A stretch of DNA of 64,000 bases from an uncultured Clostridia bacterium. GTDB taxonomy: Bacteria > Bacillota > Clostridia > Christensenellales > UBA1242. The first letter of the stretch is position 1. Each line of letters opens with the position of its first letter. The notes beneath the pieces were generated by a model, which had not been told where the DNA came from, did not search any database, and was given only the letters and a program-made list of their open reading frames with translations. This document shows positions 10,708-26,542 of the stretch, one piece after another. The translations under genes and the position numbers were made by a program. The stretch lies in the NCBI GenBank assembly GCA_947588355.1, contig CANPYI010000007.1, positions 601 through 64,600 of the forward strand, given 5' to 3'.

Positions 10708-11694
10708 ATGGATGAACTTAAAAAATACGAATATTTGCCAAAAAAGTTGAAAGAATATGGCTTCAAAAACATTGATGAAGCAAAAGAATTTTGCCTAAAA
10801 GCAGGCATTGATGTAGAAAAAACAGTGCGTGAAATCCAACCAATATGCTTTGACAACGCAGTTTGGGCATACACCCTTGGCACAGCGATTGCATTGAAAA
10901 GCAACTGTAAAAATGCCAGCGAATATGCCGAAAAGATTGGTGAAGGTTTGCAGGCATTTTGCGTGAAAGGCTCGGTGGCTGACGAACGTCAAATCGGGCT
11001 TGGACATGGCAGACTTGCCGGCAGGCTTTTGGACGAAAACACAAAATGTTTTTGTTTTTTGGCAGGACACGAAAGTTTTGCGGCTGCAGAAGGTGCTATG
11101 GGAATAGCAAAAACAGCAAACAAAATCAGAAAAACACCCCTCAAAATCATTTTAAACGGGCTTGGCAAAGATGCTGCCTACATCATCGCTCGCGTGAATG
11201 GTTTCACTTATGTCAACACACAATTTGACCATAAAGAACAAAAACTGAAAATTTTGCAAGAAATCCCATTTTCAAAGGGCGAACGCGGAAATGTGAAGAT
11301 TTATGGCGCTTATGACGTTTCGGAAGGCGTTGCAATTATGCAGCACGAAGGCGTTGACGTGTCAATCACAGGAAATTCCACAAATCCAACGCGTTTCCAA
11401 CACCCTGTTGCCGGAACTTACAAAAAATGGTGCTATGAGAATGGCAAAAAATACTTTTCAGTTGCCTCTGGTGGTGGAACAGGCAGAACGTTGCACCCAG
11501 ACAACATGCATGCCGGTCCAGCAAGTTATGGCATGACAGACACAATGGGCAGAATGCATTGTGACGCACAATTTGCCGGTTCATCTTCCGTTCCCGCCCA
11601 TGTTGCGATGATGGGCTTTATTGGTATGGGAAACAATCCAATGGTTGGTGCAACGGTGAGTTTGGCCGTTGCAGTTGCCATGGCAAAAAAATAA
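10708..11694 (+). CDS. GGGtGRT family protein (function unknown)
   Basis: 328 aa containing the family-defining SGGGTGRTLHPDN motif; translationally coupled to the upstream NifU-like gene. Confidence 0.8.
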   Translation: MDELKKYEYLPKKLKEYGFKNIDEAKEFCLKAGIDVEKTVREIQPICFDNAVWAYTLGTAIALKSNCKNASEYAEKIGEGLQAFCVKGSVADERQIGLGHGRLAGRLLDENTKCFCFLAGHESFAAAEGAMGIAKTANKIRKTPLKIILNGLGKDAAYIIARVNGFTYVNTQFDHKEQKLKILQEIPFSKGERGNVKIYGAYDVSEGVAIMQHEGVDVSITGNSTNPTRFQHPVAGTYKKWCYENGKKYFSVASGGGTGRTLHPDNMHAGPASYGMTDTMGRMHCDAQFAGSSSVPAHVAMMGFIGMGNNPMVGATVSLAVAVAMAKK

Positions 11695-11893
11695 AGCCCA
11701 TATGGCCGAGTGAAACGAGGACATATGACAAACATTTGGTATGGGGAACAATCCAATGGTTGGTGCAACAGTAAGCCTTGCGGTCGCAGTGAGTTTGGCG
11801 AAAAAGTGAATAAAGCCCATATGGCCGAAACGAAGTGAGAAACAATCTTGCAACGGTTTCACTTGCCGTTGCGGTTGCTATGGCAAAAAGTGA
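11623..11893 (+). repeat. Three tandem copies of the 3'-terminal coding segment of the GGGtGRT gene (in-gene copy plus two orphan copies)
   Basis: Units start at 11623, 11738 and about 11837. Each encodes (GMGNNPMVG)ATVSLAVAV(A/S)(M/L)AKK; the first two are followed by stop + AAGCCCATATGGCCGA, while copy 3 lacks that 16-mer and has lost its stop through a 1-nt A-run deletion. Confidence 0.9.
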
Positions 11894-21530: not shown

Positions 21531-21625
21531 ATAAAAATCCTCTTTTTGATTGTAAAACACATTTCAAAAAGAGGAATAATCAAATTTTGTCATAAAAGGC
21601 AAAAAAATGTCACTTTTTGCATTTT

Positions 21626-22315
21626 TTAAGCAAACCGATAAAATTGCAATATGCCACAAAACAGATGATAGCAAAACTTGTGCATGTATTCTCTGTTTTG
21701 CAAAAGCAGTTCTTCATTTGGATTGGACAAAAAACCGCACTCCACCAAAATGCTAGGACACGGCGAAACGTTCAATACATAAAAATCGCCGACCTTGGAA
21801 GTGAGTTTGGCGTTATCAAAATTGTCATGCAAATTTTTTGAAACACTGTCGGCAAGCGCCTGACCACTTTCACTTCCGTCAGCATAATAAACCTGCGCAC
21901 CGCACGCCTCTGACGACGGAAAACTGTTCATGTGAATGCTGACAACAATATCTGGATTGCTGTTTTCAATCACCTGCTTGCGTTTTTCCATCTCGCTTTT
22001 CTTTTTGTTTGGCGCAAGAGGGTCATACAGCCCCGCCATACTCTCCCTTGTCATCACAACTTCAAATCCATATTGCTCGCATATGCCCGCCAACGTTTTG
22101 GCATACTCCAAATTTAAGTAACTTTCAGTTGCCTCAGTCGTCTTTCCAACCGCCCCGCCGTCCTTTCCGCCGTGCCCAGCATCAATCACAATCACATGCT
22201 CCGGCTTTGGCATAAAGGTCGGCCGAATTGCCGTGAAATACACCACCACACTTGCCAAAACAAGCAAGAAACATAAAACAATCAAAATCCACTTTCGTTT
22301 TAAAGTTAAAAACAT
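21626..22315 (-). CDS. cwlD: N-acetylmuramoyl-L-alanine amidase, CwlD-like
   Basis: 229 aa; signal-anchor then VIDAGHGGKDGGAVG, SIHMNS and LVECGFLSN amidase_3 motifs. Confidence 0.85.
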   Translation of the reverse strand: MFLTLKRKWILIVLCFLLVLASVVVYFTAIRPTFMPKPEHVIVIDAGHGGKDGGAVGKTTEATESYLNLEYAKTLAGICEQYGFEVVMTRESMAGLYDPLAPNKKKSEMEKRKQVIENSNPDIVVSIHMNSFPSSEACGAQVYYADGSESGQALADSVSKNLHDNFDNAKLTSKVGDFYVLNVSPCPSILVECGFLSNPNEELLLQNREYMHKFCYHLFCGILQFYRFA

Positions 22316-22385
22316 ATGATATTTTATGAAAATCTCACAAATTTAAGAACAAAAAGGCATTTTTATCAAATTTTTTAAAAAAGGC

Positions 22386-22412
22386 TTGACAAACGCCCCC
22401 CCGTGTTAAAAT
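22386..22412 (+). promoter_or_regulatory. Promoter of the ankyrin cassette with a C7 tract in the spacer
   Basis: TTGACA(22386-91)-15 nt including C7 (22396-22402)-TGtTAAAAT extended -10. Confidence 0.6.
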
Positions 22413-22444
22413 GACCTTGTAAACAAAATTTTTTGGAGGTATAT

Positions 22445-23449
22445 ATGAAACAAGAATTGAAAGACAGCATTTATAATCTTTTCAAACAGGCACTCTCTTT
22501 GGGAGAATTTGAACAAGCAGAGCAAATCTTAAAATCGCTTAATATAGATGATGCCATGTTAAACGCTGCAGTAGACGATCAACTGGATTTCGAATCTCCC
22601 GACATTAAAAGCATAAAATGGTTGCTTGCACACGGCGGAAACTTCAAAGATGACGCTTTATTTAAAATCGTGAGAAAAGACAGTAAAGAATTGATTGACT
22701 TGGCTTTAAAACAAGGTGTCAACATAAATGCTCAAGATGAAAATGGTCGCACGCCCTTGTTCGTTGCTGCGCTGTTTGGAAAAGCCGATATTCTTGATCT
22801 GTTACTTAAAAATGGAGCAGATCCAAATGTTAGAGACAACAGTGGCCAAACCGCGATGTTTTCTTGCGCCGCCACTTATGTTGCTTACAGCACCGAACAC
22901 GTGAAAAAGATTAAACTGCTTGCCAAAAGTGGCGCAGATGTAAATGCCAAAGATAATCAAGGCAGAACTCCAATAATGTTTGCAGACAAACATGGAGTTG
23001 AAGCATTATCTTCATTGGGCGCCGATGTAAACGCCAAAGATAATGATGGCAAAACAGCATTGCTGCATATCTTATCCACCAACGTAACCACTTCTACCAG
23101 GCAAATATTCGTGAAAGATTTCTCAGAAATAGTTCCCGCTGCAAAGATGTTGATAAAAAATGGCGCAGATGTCTTTGCAACAATAGATTGTGTGGACGAA
23201 CAAAATATCCTCTTCCAAAGAAACTTGTTTGATATTGCCAAAGACAATCATAATTTGGACGTCTTAGAAGAGATAGTTGGAAAAAATTTATATAAAAAGT
23301 TGTTTGAAGCAAGCAACCGCTTAAAATATGCTCATCAAACAGCAGAGTCTCCAACATCAAAGCTTAGTGCTACTGGAGAAAGATGTCTTGCTGTCTGCCA
23401 AGACCCGCCATCTGAACATAAAATTCAAAACAAAGATAAAACAAAATAA
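22445..23449 (+). CDS. Ankyrin-repeat protein
   Basis: At least 5 ANK repeats (GRTPLFVAALFGKADILDLLLKNGADPN, NQGRTPIMFA, GADVNAKDNDGKTALLH); ATG 22445 behind GGAGG. Confidence 0.85.
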   Translation: MKQELKDSIYNLFKQALSLGEFEQAEQILKSLNIDDAMLNAAVDDQLDFESPDIKSIKWLLAHGGNFKDDALFKIVRKDSKELIDLALKQGVNINAQDENGRTPLFVAALFGKADILDLLLKNGADPNVRDNSGQTAMFSCAATYVAYSTEHVKKIKLLAKSGADVNAKDNQGRTPIMFADKHGVEALSSLGADVNAKDNDGKTALLHILSTNVTTSTRQIFVKDFSEIVPAAKMLIKNGADVFATIDCVDEQNILFQRNLFDIAKDNHNLDVLEEIVGKNLYKKLFEASNRLKYAHQTAESPTSKLSATGERCLAVCQDPPSEHKIQNKDKTK

Positions 23450-23455
23450 AATTTT

Positions 23456-23483
23456 AAAAGCATATCACCCCGATATGCTTTTT
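23456..23483. terminator. Shared hairpin terminator, copy T2
   Basis: GCATATC-ACCCC-GATATGC + T5. Confidence 0.8.
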
Positions 23484-23500
23484 AATTGCTTTTAATTTCT

Positions 23501-23692
23501 CTACAGTCCTAACTTGACATCCAACCCGCCGTGGCCGGCATCAATAACAATCACCTTTTGCGTGTTTGGACGAAATGTCGGCTTTATGGCAGTGAAATAA
23601 ACAACGGCTGTTGCAATCGCAAGCAAAAAACAAGTCGCCAAAACAAAATATTCCTTTTTCAAAACAAAAAATCTGTGTTTTTTAGAAAACAT
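23501..23692 (-). pseudogene. Truncated 5' fragment of cwlD (copy B)
   Basis: 63 codons; ...VVYFTAIKPTFRPNTQKVIVIDAGHGG then LDVKLGL-stop; matches the cwlD N-terminus and breaks at the same point as copy C. Confidence 0.85.
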
Positions 23693-23745
23693 AAGATATT
23701 TTATTTTTCAAACATTTCACTTATAACAAAAATTTGGCACAAATG

Positions 23746-23775
23746 ATTGAAGCCCTAAATTTTTGATGATACAAT
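23746..23775 (+). promoter_or_regulatory. Promoter of the MuF-motif/DUF4926-like cassette
   Basis: TTGAAG-18 nt-TGaTACAAT extended -10. Confidence 0.5.
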
Positions 23776-23804
23776 CACCGAAAATATTATCAAAGGAGAA
23801 CATT

Positions 23805-24376
23805 ATGAATATTTTTGATTGGTTGTTTAATTGGGTCAAAAAATAATTGGTGGCTTTGGTGGGGATTTTATTCAAAAAATAAGTTTAAGCAGTTTGGATT
23901 TGGAAAAATGTAATGGAGAAGCAATATCTGATGAATTAACTAACACTTGTGAAATATGTGTCGCTTTAAACAAAACTGTTTTCAAAAGTAATAATAGTCC
24001 AACATACACACATCCCCATTGCAAATGCATTCAAATTCCAACAACTTTATCATCGCCTTCGCTCATATTTGATATGAGGAAAATAACAGATTATCTTTTT
24101 ATTGACAAAAGCAAGTCAAGAATGATAAAATCAATGGGATTTTATCCAGAAGATGCACAATTCCTATATGATTATGTATCTTTAAATGTTACAAAAGAAT
24201 TTGTAAATGGCAACTACATATTAAAGAATTTAAATAAAAATGGTCAACATTTTCAAATTAATTATAATATTAATGGTAAACGAGACCATTCAAACGAGAC
24301 TTTTCAATGCTATGCGGGTTGTATTGCATATCCAAACGGAAAAATTAAAATTGCAACACCTTTAGTAAAAATATAG
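23805..24376 (+). CDS. MuF-type zinc-motif + DUF6883-like protein, interrupted by a -1 frameshift at A6 (23838-23843)
   Basis: ATG 23805 behind AAAGGAGA stops after 13 codons; one extra A would join it to the 23831..24376 frame; CEIC..x20..HPHCKC motif; KITDYLF...GFYPED... C-terminal domain. Confidence 0.6.
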
Positions 24377-24387
24377 GAGAGATGAAC

Positions 24388-24717
24388 ATGAAACTATACG
24401 ATGATGTCAGAGTCATAAATGACAAATATGAAAACATTGGCATAAAAAAGGGCAGCCATGGTGCAATTGTTTTGGCTGAAATCCGAGGACACAGTGTGGA
24501 AGTGGAATTTTTTGATCTTCCAAAAGATGTTTTTGCTCTGCAATGCATAGACATCGAAGATTTGGAAGTGACGCATGAATCTGCGGTAACAGATGAGCAT
24601 ATTTTGGACGAACTCCCCTCACATGACAAACGATGGTGGTGCAAAGTCGAAAATGGTTACATCGTAAATTTGCTTGGTGAAAAGAAAAACAAAATGCCAT
24701 ATGATTACAATTCATAA
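24388..24717 (+). CDS. DUF4926-like small protein (candidate antidote/immunity partner)
   Basis: MKLYDDVRVINDK...GSHGAIVLAEIRGHSVEVEFFD resembles DUF4926; its AGGAGA RBS overlaps the upstream stop codon. Confidence 0.6.
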   Translation: MKLYDDVRVINDKYENIGIKKGSHGAIVLAEIRGHSVEVEFFDLPKDVFALQCIDIEDLEVTHESAVTDEHILDELPSHDKRWWCKVENGYIVNLLGEKKNKMPYDYNS

Positions 24718-24746
24718 AAAAGCATATCCCATGATATGCTTTTTTT
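24716..24746. terminator. Shared hairpin terminator, copy T3
   Basis: GCATATC-CCAT-GATATGC + T7. Confidence 0.8.
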
Positions 24747-24927
24747 ATTTCCAATACAGCCCTAACTTGACATCCAACCCACCGTGCCCAGCATCAATCA
24801 CAATAACATGCTCCGCCTTTGGCATAAATGTCGGCCGAATCGCCGTGAAATACACCACCACGCTTGCCACAACAAGCAACACACATAAAACAATCAAAAT
24901 CCACTTTTTCTTTAAGGTCAAAAACAA
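24745..24927 (-). pseudogene. Truncated 5' fragment of cwlD (copy C)
   Basis: 60 codons; MFLTLKKKWILIVLCVLLVVASVVVYFTAIRPTFMPKAEHVIVIDAGHGG then LDVKLGLYWK-stop; start codon is TTG instead of ATG. Confidence 0.9.
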
Positions 24928-25008
24928 ATGATATTTTATGAAAACAGCAGAAAAATAAGAACAAAAAGGCGTTTTTTATAAAAAATATAAAAATTTTTGA
25001 AAAAGGGC

Positions 25009-25036
25009 TTGACAAGTCCCCCCCCCGAGTTATAAT
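25009..25036 (+). promoter_or_regulatory. Promoter of the third cassette with a C9 tract in the spacer
   Basis: TTGACA(25009-14)-16 nt including C9 (25018-25026)-TATAAT(25031-36); paralogous to the 22386 promoter. Confidence 0.65.
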
Positions 25037-25069
25037 GATCGCGAAAATTGAAAATGAAGGAGAAAAATT

Positions 25070-25693
25070 ATGAAATTTGAAAACGAAATTTATATGGTTG
25101 TTAATAAAAGCAACCTTGCACAAGGTGGAACAACAAAAATAGGAGCAGACGACGACCTTCTTGAAATCGAAATCCAGAATGATTACAATATGGGACACTT
25201 CCGCACAAAATGTTCATTAAGTGACCTTATTGGGCTACTAAAAATTTGGGAATTCGACTTCAAAACTCAAACACCAAATTGTTTTTCTCGTGAACCAATA
25301 ATTATTTTAGATCCTAATGATACTGAAAATATAGCAAGACGGCAAGAAAATCAGAAAATAGATTACAGTTTAAAAAGTTCTAAAGTTGAAAAATTTTTGA
25401 GTTGCTGGGATGGCAGTATAACAATTCAATTCGGAGAACAAAAATATTTAATCGCATTTCCTGCTAAAGATTTGTCCAATGATTTTCAAAGTGTTGTAAA
25501 AGATTTAAAAGATAAATCTGTTGAATTTAAAGAAAATGTTAATCTTCGCCCCTCACTCACGATCACTGGAGATGATTGTTTTGAAAAATTTATTAATTTA
25601 TCGCTAGAAACTCAAGAAAGACTAGAGAAAAGAGTGGCTGAAAGCAAAGGCAAAAGCGGAAATAAACACAAATCCAGAGAAAAAGAAAAATAA
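25070..25693 (+). CDS. Hypothetical protein (orphan cargo of the third module)
   Basis: 207 aa, no recognisable motif, Lys-rich tail; AAGGAGA RBS. Confidence 0.6.
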   Translation: MKFENEIYMVVNKSNLAQGGTTKIGADDDLLEIEIQNDYNMGHFRTKCSLSDLIGLLKIWEFDFKTQTPNCFSREPIIILDPNDTENIARRQENQKIDYSLKSSKVEKFLSCWDGSITIQFGEQKYLIAFPAKDLSNDFQSVVKDLKDKSVEFKENVNLRPSLTITGDDCFEKFINLSLETQERLEKRVAESKGKSGNKHKSREKEK

Positions 25694-25703
25694 ATTTTCA
25701 TTT

Positions 25704-25734
25704 AAAAAAGCATATCACCCGATATGTTTTTTTT
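25704..25734. terminator. Shared hairpin terminator, copy T4 (slightly decayed)
   Basis: GCATATC-ACCC-GATATG + T8. Confidence 0.7.
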
Positions 25735-25870
25735 GTGGTCGTTACGTATAATTTTGCGTGGAGATTTGTTATGGGTGTTTTTACATGATTTGATGGCTCT
25801 GTGTAAGATTGTGGTTTGAGTTTGTTAAAAAATTTGGCGGATTTATGAAAAATGTGATAAAATGATATAT

Positions 25871-26542
25871 ATGAAAAAGATTTTGCTTGTTTTGTCATTT
25901 TTTTGCCTTGTTTTGACATTTTTTATGCCAACAAATTTTGCTTGCGCACAAGAAGACAACACATCATCAAACTATATTGTCACGGCGGACTATGCGATTG
26001 TTTTTTCGGAGGCAAATTTTGCGTCAGGAAAACTTGCCACTTTATCTCACAAACACGACGTCAAAATTTTGTTAGAAGACAACTCCCCCGTCTGCGAAAA
26101 ATACGGTGAATTTGTTTTTTATAAATTAGATTTGCAAGAAAATGATATACAAAATTCCGATTTTCAATTTGGCTACATTTTGTCTGACTTGATTGTCGAA
26201 AAAACTGCTGAGATTGTGGCATATCCAAACTTTAATGCAAGCACAAATCAAGAATGTGTGGTTTTTGCTCTGCGCGGACAAGAATATGTTGAAACAAACA
26301 ATGTTTTGCCACAAAACACAAAAATATTTCTTTATCGTGGCTTCAACAAAAAACTGAATTATACTGCCATTTGTTTTGTTGCCAACGATTCTGTTGAATA
26401 TGGATATCTCAAAACAGACTGTATCAATCCCAATGGCATAAATCCGGTTCTTATCACTTGTGTGGTTTTGATTGTGGCAATTCTTGGAATAATATTTGCG
26501 TGGATATTTATGAAAAACAAACGCGTGAAAATAAAAAAATGA
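25871..26542 (+). CDS. Secreted, C-terminally membrane-anchored hypothetical protein
   Basis: Signal peptide MKKILLVLSFFCLVLTFF..ACAQ and C-terminal TM helix + KNKRVKIKK; alternative ATG at 25862. Confidence 0.6.
   Translation: MKKILLVLSFFCLVLTFFMPTNFACAQEDNTSSNYIVTADYAIVFSEANFASGKLATLSHKHDVKILLEDNSPVCEKYGEFVFYKLDLQENDIQNSDFQFGYILSDLIVEKTAEIVAYPNFNASTNQECVVFALRGQEYVETNNVLPQNTKIFLYRGFNKKLNYTAICFVANDSVEYGYLKTDCINPNGINPVLITCVVLIVAILGIIFAWIFMKNKRVKIKK

What the first reader, a model, noticed from the sequence alone, without database searches (positions are those of the whole stretch)
23805..24717. MuF-type zinc-motif + DUF6883-like protein coupled to a DUF4926-like protein: candidate toxin/antidote cargo
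The first ORF combines a short segment carrying the Cys/His pattern typical of the C-terminal end of phage MuF/SPP1-gp7 head-morphogenesis domains (TCEICVALNKTVF...SPTYTHPHCKCIQIP) with a roughly 100-aa C-terminal region. That region (KITDYLF..SKSRMIKSMGFYPEDAQFLYDYV....NGQHFQINYNINGK...) looks like the DUF6883 family as far as I recall it. MuF domains are known carriers of polymorphic toxin tips in temperate phages. The second ORF starts 12 nt after the first ORF's stop codon, and its RBS overlaps that stop. It begins MKLYDDVRVIND...GSHGAIVLAEI..HSVEVEFFD, which matches my memory of DUF4926, a family I recall being found next to DUF6883 genes. Here the pair is isolated from any phage and sits in the cassette array.
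Basis: inference. Interest (0 to 1): 0.65.

Follow-up and report, generated by a model that had tools for sequence, protein, structure and literature searches.

The report
Frameshifted RNase toxin–immunity gene cassette
This is a small mobile two-gene module from an uncultured rabbit-gut Clostridia bacterium: a predicted RNase toxin built on a leftover piece of a phage head protein, followed by its antidote. The toxin gene in this strain carries a one-base frameshift; the module is a new subfamily of a known kind, not a new kind of system.

Summary

- **ORF1 N-terminus:** residues 6-70 match the C-terminal, Cys/His-bearing half of a bona fide phage MuF domain.
- **ORF1 C-terminus:** residues 79-181 are a divergent DUF6883 domain. 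Its confident model matches the BECR-fold tRNase toxin CdiA-CT of Klebsiella pneumoniae 342 (TM 0.70).
- **ORF2:** 24388-24717 is a DUF4926 domain plus a conserved 50-residue extension.
- **Pairing:** 37 of 41 species-level loci have the pair, 6-27 nt apart between the aligned ends of the two gene products. Three of three canonical DUF6883 genes are followed by a DUF4926 gene.
- **Decay pattern:** 12 of the 41 toxin genes are broken, 8 of them with intact immunity. Six loci carry 2-3 immunity copies.

An A6 run (23838-23843) stops translation after 13 codons. Sister strains carry A7 and an intact 190-aa gene.

The pair lies between two truncated copies of the cwlD 5' end, each abutting the same 24-nt motif, in a strain-variable region with no phage genes within about 5 kb. 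Toxicity is inferred, not shown.

The parts
23747..23775 (+). Promoter-like site TTGAAG-17-TACAAT with a TG extension, upstream of ORF1
   Evidence: Consensus scan. The region is collinear with the cwlD-pair intergenic region of L009.
23793..23798 (+). Ribosome-binding site AAGGAG, 6 nt before ATG 23805
   Evidence: Read from the sequence.
23805..23846 (+). Original start of the toxin gene: 13 codons (MNIFDWLFNWVKK) followed by TAA, cut off from the rest by the frameshift
   Evidence: This N-terminus aligns with those of the 188-203 aa homologs.
23838..23843 (.). A6 run, the frameshift site. Sister strains carry A7; the ortholog carries AAAAAC followed by A.
   Evidence: an A is inserted after 23837 in the contigs of runs X5 and X6.
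23831..24376 (+). Main toxin reading frame as it stands in the window (181 aa from TTG 23831, which has no ribosome-binding site)
   Evidence: The AF2 model has pLDDT 93.5.
23846..24040 (+). Cys/His-bearing C-terminal half of a MuF (phage head-morphogenesis) domain. In 181-aa numbering, C40, C43 and H61 are invariant and C64 and C66 are at least 90% conserved.
   Evidence: PHROG 1657 and 115 hits. BLASTP against a bona fide Phage_Mu_F protein gives E 5e-7. BFVD minor capsid protein hits. Conservation.
24065..24373 (+). Divergent DUF6883 domain with a BECR-like fold (three helices, then a four-stranded sheet). Conserved residues are K84, Y88, K95, Y129, K171 and T176.
   Evidence: membership through relatives. 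Model pLDDT 95.5. Foldseek hit to 6cp9_G with TM 0.70/0.67.
24376..24381 (+). Ribosome-binding site GGAGAG for ORF2, overlapping the toxin's stop codon (translational coupling)
   Evidence: Read from the sequence.
24388..24717 (+). Immunity gene, 109 aa (MKLYDD...)
   Evidence: 231 homologs. Always directly downstream of toxin homologs. dN/dS 0.057 against the L009 ortholog.
24394..24567 (+). DUF4926 domain of the immunity protein
   Evidence: The window copy scores 21.6-21.7 bits against a cutoff of 29.1. 23 of 48 members hit at E of 0.01 or better, the best at 4.6e-8.
24568..24714 (+). Conserved C-terminal extension of the immunity protein (..DELPxxDxxWWCKVExGYIxNLLGEKKNKxPYDYNS). It matches no known family.
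   Evidence: It is absent from the 58-65 aa DUF4926 partners of canonical DUF6883 proteins.
24717..24746 (+). Terminator hairpin AAAAAGCATATC-CCAT-GATATGCTTTTT. The same stem follows the ankyrin gene at 23456-23482.
23502..23525 (+). 24-nt motif TACAGTCCTAACTTGACATCCAAC, abutting the truncation point of cwlD fragment 1
   Evidence: 2 copies found, 0 expected.
24755..24778 (+). Second copy of the 24-nt motif, abutting cwlD fragment 2. Homology to L009 ends at 24754.
23526..23692 (-). Truncated 5' end of a cwlD-type amidase gene (fragment 1). It ends at ..DAGHGG and then reads LDVKLGL* into the motif.
   Evidence: Collinear with the intact L009 cwlD 5' end.
24779..24927 (-). Truncated 5' end of cwlD (fragment 2), 87% identical to the 5' end of the intact gene and broken at the same point
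21626..22315 (-). Intact CwlD-like N-acetylmuramoyl-L-alanine amidase gene. Its 5' end is the third repeat copy.
   Evidence: TIGR02883 E 1.5e-48, below the equivalog cutoff.
22433..23449 (+). Neighbouring cassette: an ankyrin-repeat protein, absent from sister strains
   Evidence: Ank families; PADLOC PDC-M72A at 1.4e-21. (depth 0 in X5, X6 and X7).

Best explanation
This is a mobile two-gene toxin-immunity (TA-like) cassette that acts inside the cell carrying it.

- **Toxin.** In intact alleles the first gene makes a protein of about 190 aa. It has a small Cys/His (probably zinc-binding) module descended from the C-terminal half of a phage MuF head-morphogenesis domain. This is fused to a divergent DUF6883 domain with a BECR-type RNase fold.
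- **Likely activity (inferred).** By analogy with its closest structural match, CdiA-CT of K. pneumoniae 342, the domain most likely cleaves tRNA. The candidate catalytic set is Lys-Tyr-Thr (K84, Y88, T176) with K95 and K171 assisting.
- **Immunity (inferred).** The second gene is translationally coupled to the first. It makes a DUF4926 protein with a family-specific C-terminal extension. I infer that it neutralises the toxin by direct binding.
- **Mobility.** The module moves between genomes as a unit of about 1.25 kb and is gained and lost between strains.
- **State in this window.** The toxin allele carries a 1-nt deletion (A7 to A6) after codon 13, so it is probably silenced or strongly attenuated. 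The immunity gene is intact.

Shown: homology, fold, gene pairing, mobility, the frameshift and the decay pattern. Inferred: toxicity, RNase activity, tRNA as substrate and neutralisation by binding.
For: **Domains**
- The half-MuF assignment rests.
- DUF6883 membership through relatives rests.
- The C-domain model (pLDDT 95.5) has one clear PDB match, 6cp9_G: probability 1.00, TM 0.70/0.67, rmsd 3.0.
- PMC9086364 describes that toxin as a BECR tRNase with an alpha-helices-then-four-strands fold and a Lys-Tyr-Thr triad plus His and Arg (K157, Y160, H170, R252, T255).
- The conserved ORF1 residues K84, Y88, K95, K171 and T176 have similar spacing.

**Pairing**
- 37 of 41 species-level loci have the immunity homolog 6-27 nt from the toxin, measured between the aligned ends of the two gene products. 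All 28 intact toxins are paired.
- Six further metagenome contexts show the same pairing.
- Canonical DUF6883 genes are followed by a DUF4926 gene in 3 of 3 cases.

**Toxin-like evolution**
- 12 of 41 toxin genes are split or truncated, and 8 of those loci keep a full immunity gene.
- Six loci have 2-3 full immunity copies. L011 has a C-terminally frameshifted toxin plus three immunity genes.
- dN/dS against the L009 ortholog is 0.23 for the toxin and 0.057 for the immunity gene.

**Mobility**
- The module and the adjacent cwlD 5' end are 87% identical to L009, against 68-75% for the flanking chromosome.
- Homologs sit in varied contexts: after hisS, after rsmG, next to the S10 operon.
- Sister strains show contig joints that omit the pair or its neighbours.

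**Literature**
- A 2026 bioRxiv preprint on BECR ribonuclease classification contains both 'DUF6883' and 'DUF4926'. I could not open it.
Against: - No experiment bears on this pair.
- The direct Pfam scores of the window proteins are below the curated cutoffs.
- The Foldseek E-value is only 0.015. I assigned chain G as the toxin from its secondary-structure composition, not from the entry's annotation.
- The whole-protein model found nothing in the PDB.
- The conserved set has no counterpart to the His needed in CdiA-CT Kp342; a Lys (K95) occupies that position.
- ORF2 has no DNA-binding domain and lies downstream of the toxin, unlike most type II antitoxins.
- Tandem and orphan immunity genes are more typical of toxins delivered between cells.
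- PADLOC and NCBIfam give no hit for either protein.
- The window allele is frameshifted, so the toxin may do nothing in this strain.
Confidence: 0.62

Rival explanations
1. The toxin is an interbacterial weapon delivered through a phage or phage-like particle. The retained half-MuF module still docks the toxin at a portal or capsid supplied in trans, so the toxin is injected into neighbouring cells. The immunity genes protect kin.
For: MuF toxins are capsid-associated polymorphic toxins, each followed by a small immunity ORF (PMC5576092). ORF1 keeps the conserved C-terminal half of that domain. BFVD 'minor capsid proteins' of 473-497 aa match across both ORF1 domains. Tandem and orphan immunity genes beside decayed toxins are typical of delivered toxins. 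The toxin-then-immunity gene order fits too.
Against: About half of the MuF domain and the whole N-terminal region are missing. There are no portal, capsid or other phage genes near the pair here, and the annotated neighbour genes in the other contexts examined are mostly housekeeping, with no portal or capsid gene. Neither protein matches 50,697 phage genomes by tblastn. The IMG/VR scan found only ordinary MuF proteins, not this architecture. The toxin has no secretion signal or secretion-system domain.
Confidence: 0.15
2. The pair is an abortive-infection sensor. The half-MuF module mimics a phage head-assembly protein. Binding an incoming phage's portal or scaffold releases the RNase from the immunity protein and shuts down translation in the infected cell.
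For: The module lies in a strain-variable region next to an ankyrin protein that matches the candidate defence gene PDC-M72A. The immunity protein has an extra conserved domain only where the toxin carries the half-MuF module (against 56). That would fit a three-way switch. From general knowledge, several TA systems are triggered by phage capsid proteins.
Against: This is an argument from architecture only. There is no PADLOC hit for either protein. I did not test for enrichment in defence islands. Frequent toxin decay with retained immunity is not what a maintained defence system would be expected to show.
Confidence: 0.1
3. The pair is not a toxin system. ORF1 would be a harmless zinc-binding nucleic-acid-binding or structural protein, and ORF2 its partner or chaperone.
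For: Toxicity is untested. All family hits are to domains of unknown function. The fold match is modest by E-value.
Against: The DUF6883 domain sits at the C-terminus of larger, varied proteins and is always followed by a small DUF4926 gene, once beside an eCIS_core gene. The closest fold is a proven toxin. The first gene decays while the second is kept and multiplied.
Confidence: 0.08

Closest known systems
DUF6883 (PF21814) / DUF4926 (PF16277) gene pairs
   Same: The toxin's C-terminal domain is homologous through relatives, and the immunity protein's N-terminal domain is homologous. Both have the toxin gene followed directly by the small partner gene.
   Different: In the canonical pairs, DUF6883 sits at the end of larger proteins (225-531 aa, some with PG_binding_1), and the partners are 58-65 aa. 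Here the carrier is only a 70-residue half-MuF module, and the partner is 109 aa or longer with an extra conserved domain. The window proteins score below both Pfam cutoffs.
CdiA-CT/CdiI of Klebsiella pneumoniae 342 (PDB 6CP9), a BECR-fold tRNase toxin with its immunity protein
   Same: This is the best structural match (TM 0.70, rmsd 3.0 over 116 aligned columns, gaps included). Both have helices followed by a four-stranded sheet, similarly spaced conserved Lys/Tyr...Lys(Arg)/Thr residues, and a beta-rich immunity partner.
   Different: Identity is 16% with no detectable sequence homology. CdiA-CT is the tip of a very large secreted CdiA filament in a Gram-negative organism. Here the protein is about 190 aa with no secretion domain, in Clostridia. 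There is no equivalent of His170. The substrate and any need for EF-Tu/EF-Ts are unknown.
MuF polymorphic toxins of temperate phages (Jamet et al. 2017, PMC5576092)
   Same: The MuF-derived sequence lies directly upstream of a C-terminal toxin domain, and a small immunity ORF follows.
   Different: Only the C-terminal half of the MuF domain is kept. The gene is not in a prophage and not next to a portal gene. The family has a fixed short architecture across 499 cluster representatives (E up to 1e-3) instead of variable tips on one trunk.
Type II toxin-antitoxin modules with RelE/BrnT-type (BECR) toxins
   Same: Both are small two-gene operons with overlapping translation signals. The toxin belongs to the same fold superfamily. 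Both are scattered across the chromosome, horizontally mobile and prone to decay.
   Different: The toxin gene comes first. The partner has no recognisable DNA-binding domain. Tandem partner arrays occur. Ribosome dependence and antitoxin lability are unknown.
Integron gene cassettes and orphan toxin-immunity cassette arrays of CDI/Rhs loci
   Same: Short cargo units, including TA pairs, lie between repeated boundary sequences in a strain-variable array. Each boundary breaks at one exact point.
   Different: The repeat is the promoter and first 55 or so codons of a housekeeping gene (cwlD) plus a 24-nt motif. I found no attC-like paired inverse core sites or hairpin by inspection, and I identified no integrase. 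The repeats are not fragments of the toxin gene.

Membership tests
Pfam DUF6883 (PF21814) | Score at or above the gathering cutoff (27 bits) against the family HMM | tested here: not met
   The window protein scores 15.8 bits, E 0.018, over residues 79-156. Thirteen of 64 family members hit at E of 0.1 or better, the best at 4.6e-5.
Pfam DUF6883 (PF21814) | Homology to accepted members, shown through a family profile | tested here: met
   The profile of 64 relatives finds proteins at E of about 1e-16 to 1e-19. Seven of the ten tested pass the DUF6883 cutoff with 27.5-38.6 bits, over the same region.
Pfam DUF4926 (PF16277) | Score at or above the gathering cutoff (29.1 bits) | tested here: not met
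   The window ORF2 scores 21.6-21.7 bits, E 1.3e-4.
Pfam DUF4926 (PF16277) | Close homologs are accepted members and the full domain is covered | tested here: met
   23 of 48 homologs hit, the best at 4.6e-8. Many carry a precomputed PF16277 assignment. Residues 3-60 align to positions 1-56 of the 57-position profile.
Pfam Phage_Mu_F (PF04233) domain | Complete MuF domain (112 positions) at or above the 29.6-bit cutoff | tested here: not met
   There is no hit for the window protein at E up to 1. One of 64 relatives hits at 0.092. hhalign against SPP1 gp7 found nothing. Only the C-terminal half is present: ORF1 residues 6-70 align to residues 232-297 of a phage protein whose MuF domain spans 188-295. 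PHROG 1657 hits at E 2.4e-5.
MuF polymorphic toxin (Jamet 2017) | Encoded in a phage or prophage, in the head/packaging module next to the portal gene | tested here: not met
   The neighbours are TilS, SpoIIE, CwlD, an ankyrin protein and a hydrolase. The other contexts examined are chromosomal. There is no tblastn match in phage genomes.
MuF polymorphic toxin (Jamet 2017) | C-terminal toxin domain after the MuF region, with a small immunity ORF directly downstream | tested here: met
BECR-fold ribonuclease toxins | The alpha/beta core fold: N-terminal helices packed on a four-stranded antiparallel sheet | tested here: met
   The AF2 C-domain model (pLDDT 95.5) has three helices and four strands. 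It matches 6cp9_G at TM 0.70/0.67 with probability 1.00, and 6CP9 is classed as BECR in PMC9086364.
BECR-fold ribonuclease toxins | A catalytic residue set equivalent to that of a characterised member | tested here: inconclusive
   Conserved K84, Y88, K95, K171 and T176 resemble K157, Y160, H170, R252 and T255 of CdiA-CT Kp342 in order and spacing. I had no residue-level superposition, and there is no His equivalent.
BECR-fold ribonuclease toxins | RNase activity and growth inhibition relieved by the cognate partner | not testable with these tools
   This needs expression and in vitro cleavage assays.
Type II toxin-antitoxin system | A labile antitoxin that binds the toxin and usually represses the operon through a DNA-binding domain | tested here: inconclusive
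   ORF2 has no DNA-binding family hit in Pfam or NCBIfam. Binding and lability cannot be tested here.
Integron gene cassette | An attC site (paired RYYYAAC / GTTRRRY boxes in an imperfect hairpin) at the cassette end, and an IntI integrase | tested here: not met
   The 24-nt motif ends in ATCCAAC (RYYYAAC), but I found no partner box or attC-type hairpin by inspecting the flanks. I did not search for an integrase.

The most novel reading that the evidence does not exclude
The pair is cargo of an undescribed kind of small insertion cassette that targets one fixed point in the 5' end of the sporulation amidase gene cwlD. Each unit, of about 1.25-1.35 kb, would carry its own copy of the cwlD promoter and first 55 or so codons, a cargo (ankyrin protein or toxin-immunity pair), a shared terminator hairpin and a shared 24-nt end motif. 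Each insertion would then restore cwlD and push the previous 5' end upstream, building an array without a recombinase encoded in the cassette. Related modules in Christensenellaceae are likewise bounded by 60-270 nt direct repeats, often a shared element of about 110 nt ending in GCAACCA.
Probability: 0.2. Interest if true: 0.7.

Novelty: new variant of a known kind. Interest (0 to 1): 0.45.

Why it matters
- **An unannotated family gets a testable function.** The family has at least 499 cluster representatives at E up to 1e-3 and carries no precomputed Pfam annotation among the listed homologs. It is common in gut Clostridia and Christensenellaceae. The proposal is a BECR-type RNase toxin with a two-domain immunity protein.
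- **A phage toxin domesticated as a TA-like cassette.** A phage MuF toxin tip appears to have become a stand-alone chromosomal cassette while keeping only the Cys/His half of MuF. The immunity protein gained an extra domain only where that half-MuF module is present, which suggests the two parts interact.
- **A natural on/off pair of alleles.** The A7 (intact) and A6 (frameshifted) alleles in sister strains, together with presence/absence variants of the cassettes, give a natural system for studying how such modules are gained, silenced and lost.
- **Limits.** The overall kind, toxin plus immunity, is well known, and nothing here has been shown experimentally.

Tried and rejected
- Foldseek of the whole two-domain model against the PDB gave only noise (best E 0.16, CorA). 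Only the C-domain-only model gave the CdiA-CT hit.
- Profile searches of both families against PDB sequences found nothing meaningful.
- hhalign of the toxin family against the single SPP1 gp7 sequence gave no alignment. gp7 lacks the first CxxC.
- tblastn of both proteins against 50,697 phage genomes found no match.
- NCBIfam and PADLOC gave no hit for either protein.
- PHROG scans of the longer DUF6883 proteins found no MuF there, so I found no full-length MuF-DUF6883 fusion by sequence.
- The metagenome scan for the 18-nt core of the 24-nt motif gave three unrelated chance hits.
- The search for related loci with the 64-sequence alignment failed for lack of a conserved stretch. I repeated it with the 8-sequence alignment.
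- I considered the integron attC reading of the cassette ends and rejected it because there is no paired box or hairpin.
- I considered whether the 24-nt motif is simply diverged cwlD sequence. The similarity is too weak to decide.
- The bioRxiv preprint that mentions DUF6883 and DUF4926 could not be opened under any identifier. I cite only the fact that it contains both terms.
- All runs holding this sequence are stored as contigs, so A6/A7 heterogeneity within a sample could not be checked at read level.
Full report
**1. What is in the sequence**

The interval holds two same-strand ORFs. The long first frame runs from TTG 23831 to TAG 24376 and gives 181 aa.

A promoter-like TTGAAG-17-TACAAT with a TG extension lies at 23747-23775. 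But this ATG is in another frame. It reads MNIFDWLFNWVKK and stops at TAA 23844-23846, just after an A6 run at 23838-23843.

The second ORF is best placed at ATG 24388 (MKLYDD..., 109 aa, ending 24717). Its GGAG(AG) site at 24376-24381 overlaps the toxin's stop codon, and all homologs begin with MK. A hairpin terminator follows at 24717-24746.

**2. The frameshift is real and strain-specific**

- Homologs are 188-203 aa, and their N-termini align with the 13-codon leader.
- The ortholog in a rabbit-gut Clostridia MAG (L009/L019, CANQRE01) reads GTCAAAAACATAATT where the window reads GTCAAAAAATAATT.
- The A6 allele is present in six independent assemblies, which also share the whole local gene arrangement.
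- Contigs of about 99% identity from two other rabbit-gut runs carry one extra A. That A7 restores a 190-aa ORF from 23805.

So the window carries a one-base deletion allele of a gene that is intact in sister strains. TTG 23831 has no ribosome-binding site. Any product would therefore need reinitiation or a -1 slip on the A run. I consider the toxin here probably silenced or strongly attenuated, but I cannot show that.

**3. What the first protein is**

The family. Direct search found 8 homologs. A profile search in the word-indexed protein collection found 182. An exhaustive profile search found 499 cluster representatives at E up to 1e-3. Most of the best-scoring ones are about 180-220 aa, and none of the listed homologs carries a precomputed Pfam domain. 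Across 64 diverse members, C40, C43, N47, H61, K95, Y129, G138 and G149 are invariant. C64, C66, K84, G103, P168, G170, K171 and T176 are at least 90% conserved. Y88 is at least 90% conserved in the closer 11-sequence alignment.

The N-terminal segment.
- Pfam gives no usable MuF hit.
- Residues 35-74 hit PHROG 1657 'head morphogenesis' at 2.4e-5. Relatives also hit PHROG 115 'minor head protein'.
- The full model's best viral matches are 'minor capsid proteins' (E 1.2e-5).
- A scan of IMG/VR found phage proteins that match only residues 6-70.
- One of these is a 312-aa protein directly after an SPP1-type portal gene. It passes the Phage_Mu_F cutoff (42.2 bits, domain 188-295). Its residues 232-297 align to ORF1 residues 6-70 at 38% identity, E 5e-7.

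The segment is therefore the Cys/His-bearing C-terminal half of a MuF domain. The rest of MuF is absent.

The C-terminal domain.
- The direct DUF6883 hit is sub-threshold (15.8 bits against 27). It recurs in 13 of 64 relatives.
- The family profile retrieves longer proteins (225-531 aa) with this domain at their C-terminus. Seven of the ten I tested pass the DUF6883 cutoff.
- A model of residues 79-181 alone has pLDDT 95.5, with three helices and then four strands.
- It has one clear PDB match, chain G of 6CP9: probability 1.00, TM 0.70/0.67, rmsd 3.0 Å, 16% identity, E 0.015.

[quoted passage not shown] The review PMC9086364 lists the toxin as a BECR-fold tRNase with helices followed by four strands. 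It cleaves uncharged tRNA-Ile in the acceptor stem and is stimulated by EF-Tu, EF-Ts and GTP. It uses a Lys-Tyr-Thr triad plus His and Arg (K157, Y160, H170, R252, T255). Its immunity protein is almost all beta-strand.

On secondary structure alone, the matched chain can only be the toxin. The conserved K84, Y88, K95 ... K171, T176 of ORF1 have similar order and spacing. This is an inference, because I had no residue-level superposition.

**4. What the second protein is**

- There are 231 homologs.
- The window copy scores 21.6-21.7 bits against DUF4926, whose cutoff is 29.1. Of 48 relatives, 23 hit at E of 0.01 or better, the best at 4.6e-8.
- The domain covers residues 3-60.
- The last 50 or so residues (..WWCKVExGYIxNLLGEKKNKxPYDYNS) are the most conserved part. 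They match no Pfam family and no PDB sequence.

**5. The pairing and its evolution**

- In 41 loci from GTDB species representatives (gut Clostridia and Christensenellaceae MAGs), 37 have an ORF2 homolog 6-27 nt from the toxin homolog, measured between the aligned ends of the two gene products. All 28 intact toxins are paired.
- Six further metagenome contexts show the same pairing in different neighbourhoods: after hisS, after rsmG, and beside the S10 ribosomal operon.
- Three canonical DUF6883 proteins are each followed by a DUF4926 gene of 58-65 aa. One of them sits beside an eCIS_core gene.
- The long immunity form occurs only with the half-MuF toxins. This suggests the extension deals with that extra module (inference).
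- Twelve of 41 toxin genes are split or truncated, and eight of those loci keep a full immunity gene. Six loci carry 2-3 full immunity copies.
- L011 has a C-terminally frameshifted toxin followed by three immunity genes. L008 and L010 hold other broken toxins.
- Against the L009 ortholog, dN/dS is 0.23 for the toxin and 0.057 for the immunity gene.

This asymmetry is what a harmful gene with a protective partner should show. MAG assembly errors may inflate the count of broken genes.

**6. Context and mobility**

The neighbours are TilS, SpoIIE, a CwlD-like amidase, an ankyrin-repeat protein, two proteins with no family, a coiled-coil protein and a hydrolase. There are no phage genes in this stretch.

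The 5' end of cwlD occurs three times: on the intact gene (21626-22315) and as two truncated copies (23526-23692 and 24779-24927). Both truncated copies break after the same codons (..DAGHGG). Both continue into the same 24-nt motif TACAGYCCTAACTTGACATCCAAC (2 found, 0 expected). Each motif is preceded by the same hairpin stem.

The segment 23518-24754 (fragment 1, the pair and the hairpin) is 87% identical to L009. There, cwlD is intact and directly abuts the pair. The flanking chromosome is only 68-75% identical. This points to horizontal transfer of the unit.

Contigs from sister strains lack the ankyrin segment. They also show joints consistent with three other forms: an empty site, loss or replacement of the pair alone, and loss of fragment 2 together with the 207-aa ORF.

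Many homologous loci are also bracketed by direct repeats of 60-270 nt. In several Christensenellaceae these are a shared element of about 110 nt ending in GCAACCA. In L035 the repeat is a duplicated promoter and ribosome-binding site.

The mechanism is unresolved. A Campbell-type insertion of circles carrying a cwlD 5' copy would give exactly this structure. I found no attC-like site, no recombinase and no further copies of the motif elsewhere.

**7. Interpretation**

Best supported is a mobile toxin-immunity (TA-like) cassette. Its toxin is a BECR-type RNase, most likely a tRNase, fused to a relic of a phage MuF toxin trunk. The toxin is neutralised by a DUF4926-based immunity protein. In this strain the toxin is frameshifted.

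Rivals concern the biological role:
- delivery through phage-like particles by way of the MuF relic;
- a phage-sensing abortive-infection switch;
- no toxicity at all.

The lack of any secretion feature and the non-phage neighbourhoods favour an intracellular module. The tandem and orphan immunity genes keep the interbacterial reading open.

**8. Novelty**

The DUF6883/DUF4926 neighbourhood exists in the databases. A 2026 preprint on BECR RNases mentions both names, but I could not read it. MuF toxins were described as exclusive to temperate phages (PMC5576092).

New here:
- the fixed short architecture of half-MuF plus DUF6883;
- the extended immunity protein;
- the family's spread as a chromosomal cassette in gut Clostridia;
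- the intact and frameshifted allele pair.

This is a new variant of a known kind, of moderate interest. The cwlD-targeted cassette structure is the more unusual lead, and it remains open.

Noticed in passing
window 22131-22381, 23490-23700, 24743-24993; motif at 23502-23525 and 24755-24778: There are three direct copies of the cwlD promoter and 5' coding end. The two truncated copies break at the identical codon and run into an identical 24-nt motif preceded by the same hairpin stem. The pattern looks like successive insertions that each brought a replacement 5' end of cwlD. No recombinase or attC-like site was found.
   Followed up: partly
window 22433-23449: The neighbouring cassette encodes a 338-aa ankyrin-repeat protein that matches the PADLOC candidate defence protein PDC-M72A (E 1.4e-21). 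It is absent (depth 0) from the contigs of three other rabbit-gut runs.
   Followed up: partly
window 21600-25900 (contig joints in runs X5, X6 and X7): Contigs of related strains show several joints. 21861>23535 joins cwlD straight to fragment 1. 22219>24848 and 22364>25018 look like an empty site. 23799>24731 has the pair missing or replaced. 24715>25706 has fragment 2 and the 207-aa ORF missing. These are presence/absence variants of each unit.
   Followed up: partly
window 25070-25693, with promoter at 25009-25036: A 207-aa ORF with no Pfam, NCBIfam or PADLOC hit sits behind a perfect TTGACA-16-TATAAT promoter. It behaves as a third variable unit: it is absent in L009 and in some sister-strain contigs.
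   Followed up: no
L025 2154-2264 and 4888-4997; L030 3699-3809 and 4907-5004; L058 2531-2610, 3029-3140 and 4936-4994; also L023, L026, L033, L034, L059: A conserved element of about 110 nt (a terminator hairpin plus about 80 nt ending ...AATTAAGTTAGCGNNNGTGCAACCA) recurs at the boundaries of toxin-immunity modules in Christensenellaceae MAGs, up to three copies per locus. It shares only a ...CAACC end with the window's 24-nt motif.
   Followed up: partly
L011 4417-6112 (also L012); L036 4552-5562: Arrays of three tandem immunity paralogs lie downstream of one toxin gene. In L011 the toxin is frameshifted near its C-terminus, and the locus sits next to the S10 ribosomal protein operon.
   Followed up: partly
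L023, L027, L033, L058 (for example L058 4470-4643 and 4752-4934): Short ORFs that match only the DUF4926 half (profile positions 3-63) follow the full-length immunity gene. They may be minimal immunity genes or decayed copies.
   Followed up: no
window 23843-24714 compared with L009: Synonymous divergence differs about threefold between the two adjacent genes (dS 0.22 for the toxin, 0.61 for the immunity gene). This hints at a mosaic or recombinant history inside the module.
   Followed up: no
window 11621-11695 and 11736-11810: A 75-nt direct repeat at 79% identity encodes a hydrophobic ..GMGNNPMVGATVSLAVAV..K* peptide end, once at the 3' end of ORF 10708-11694 and again 115 nt downstream.
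   Followed up: no
L062 3143-5228: A canonical DUF6883 protein with a PG_binding_1 domain sits directly after an eCIS_core (PF13699) gene and before a 62-aa DUF4926 gene. This suggests that some DUF6883 toxins are cargo of contractile injection systems.
   Followed up: no
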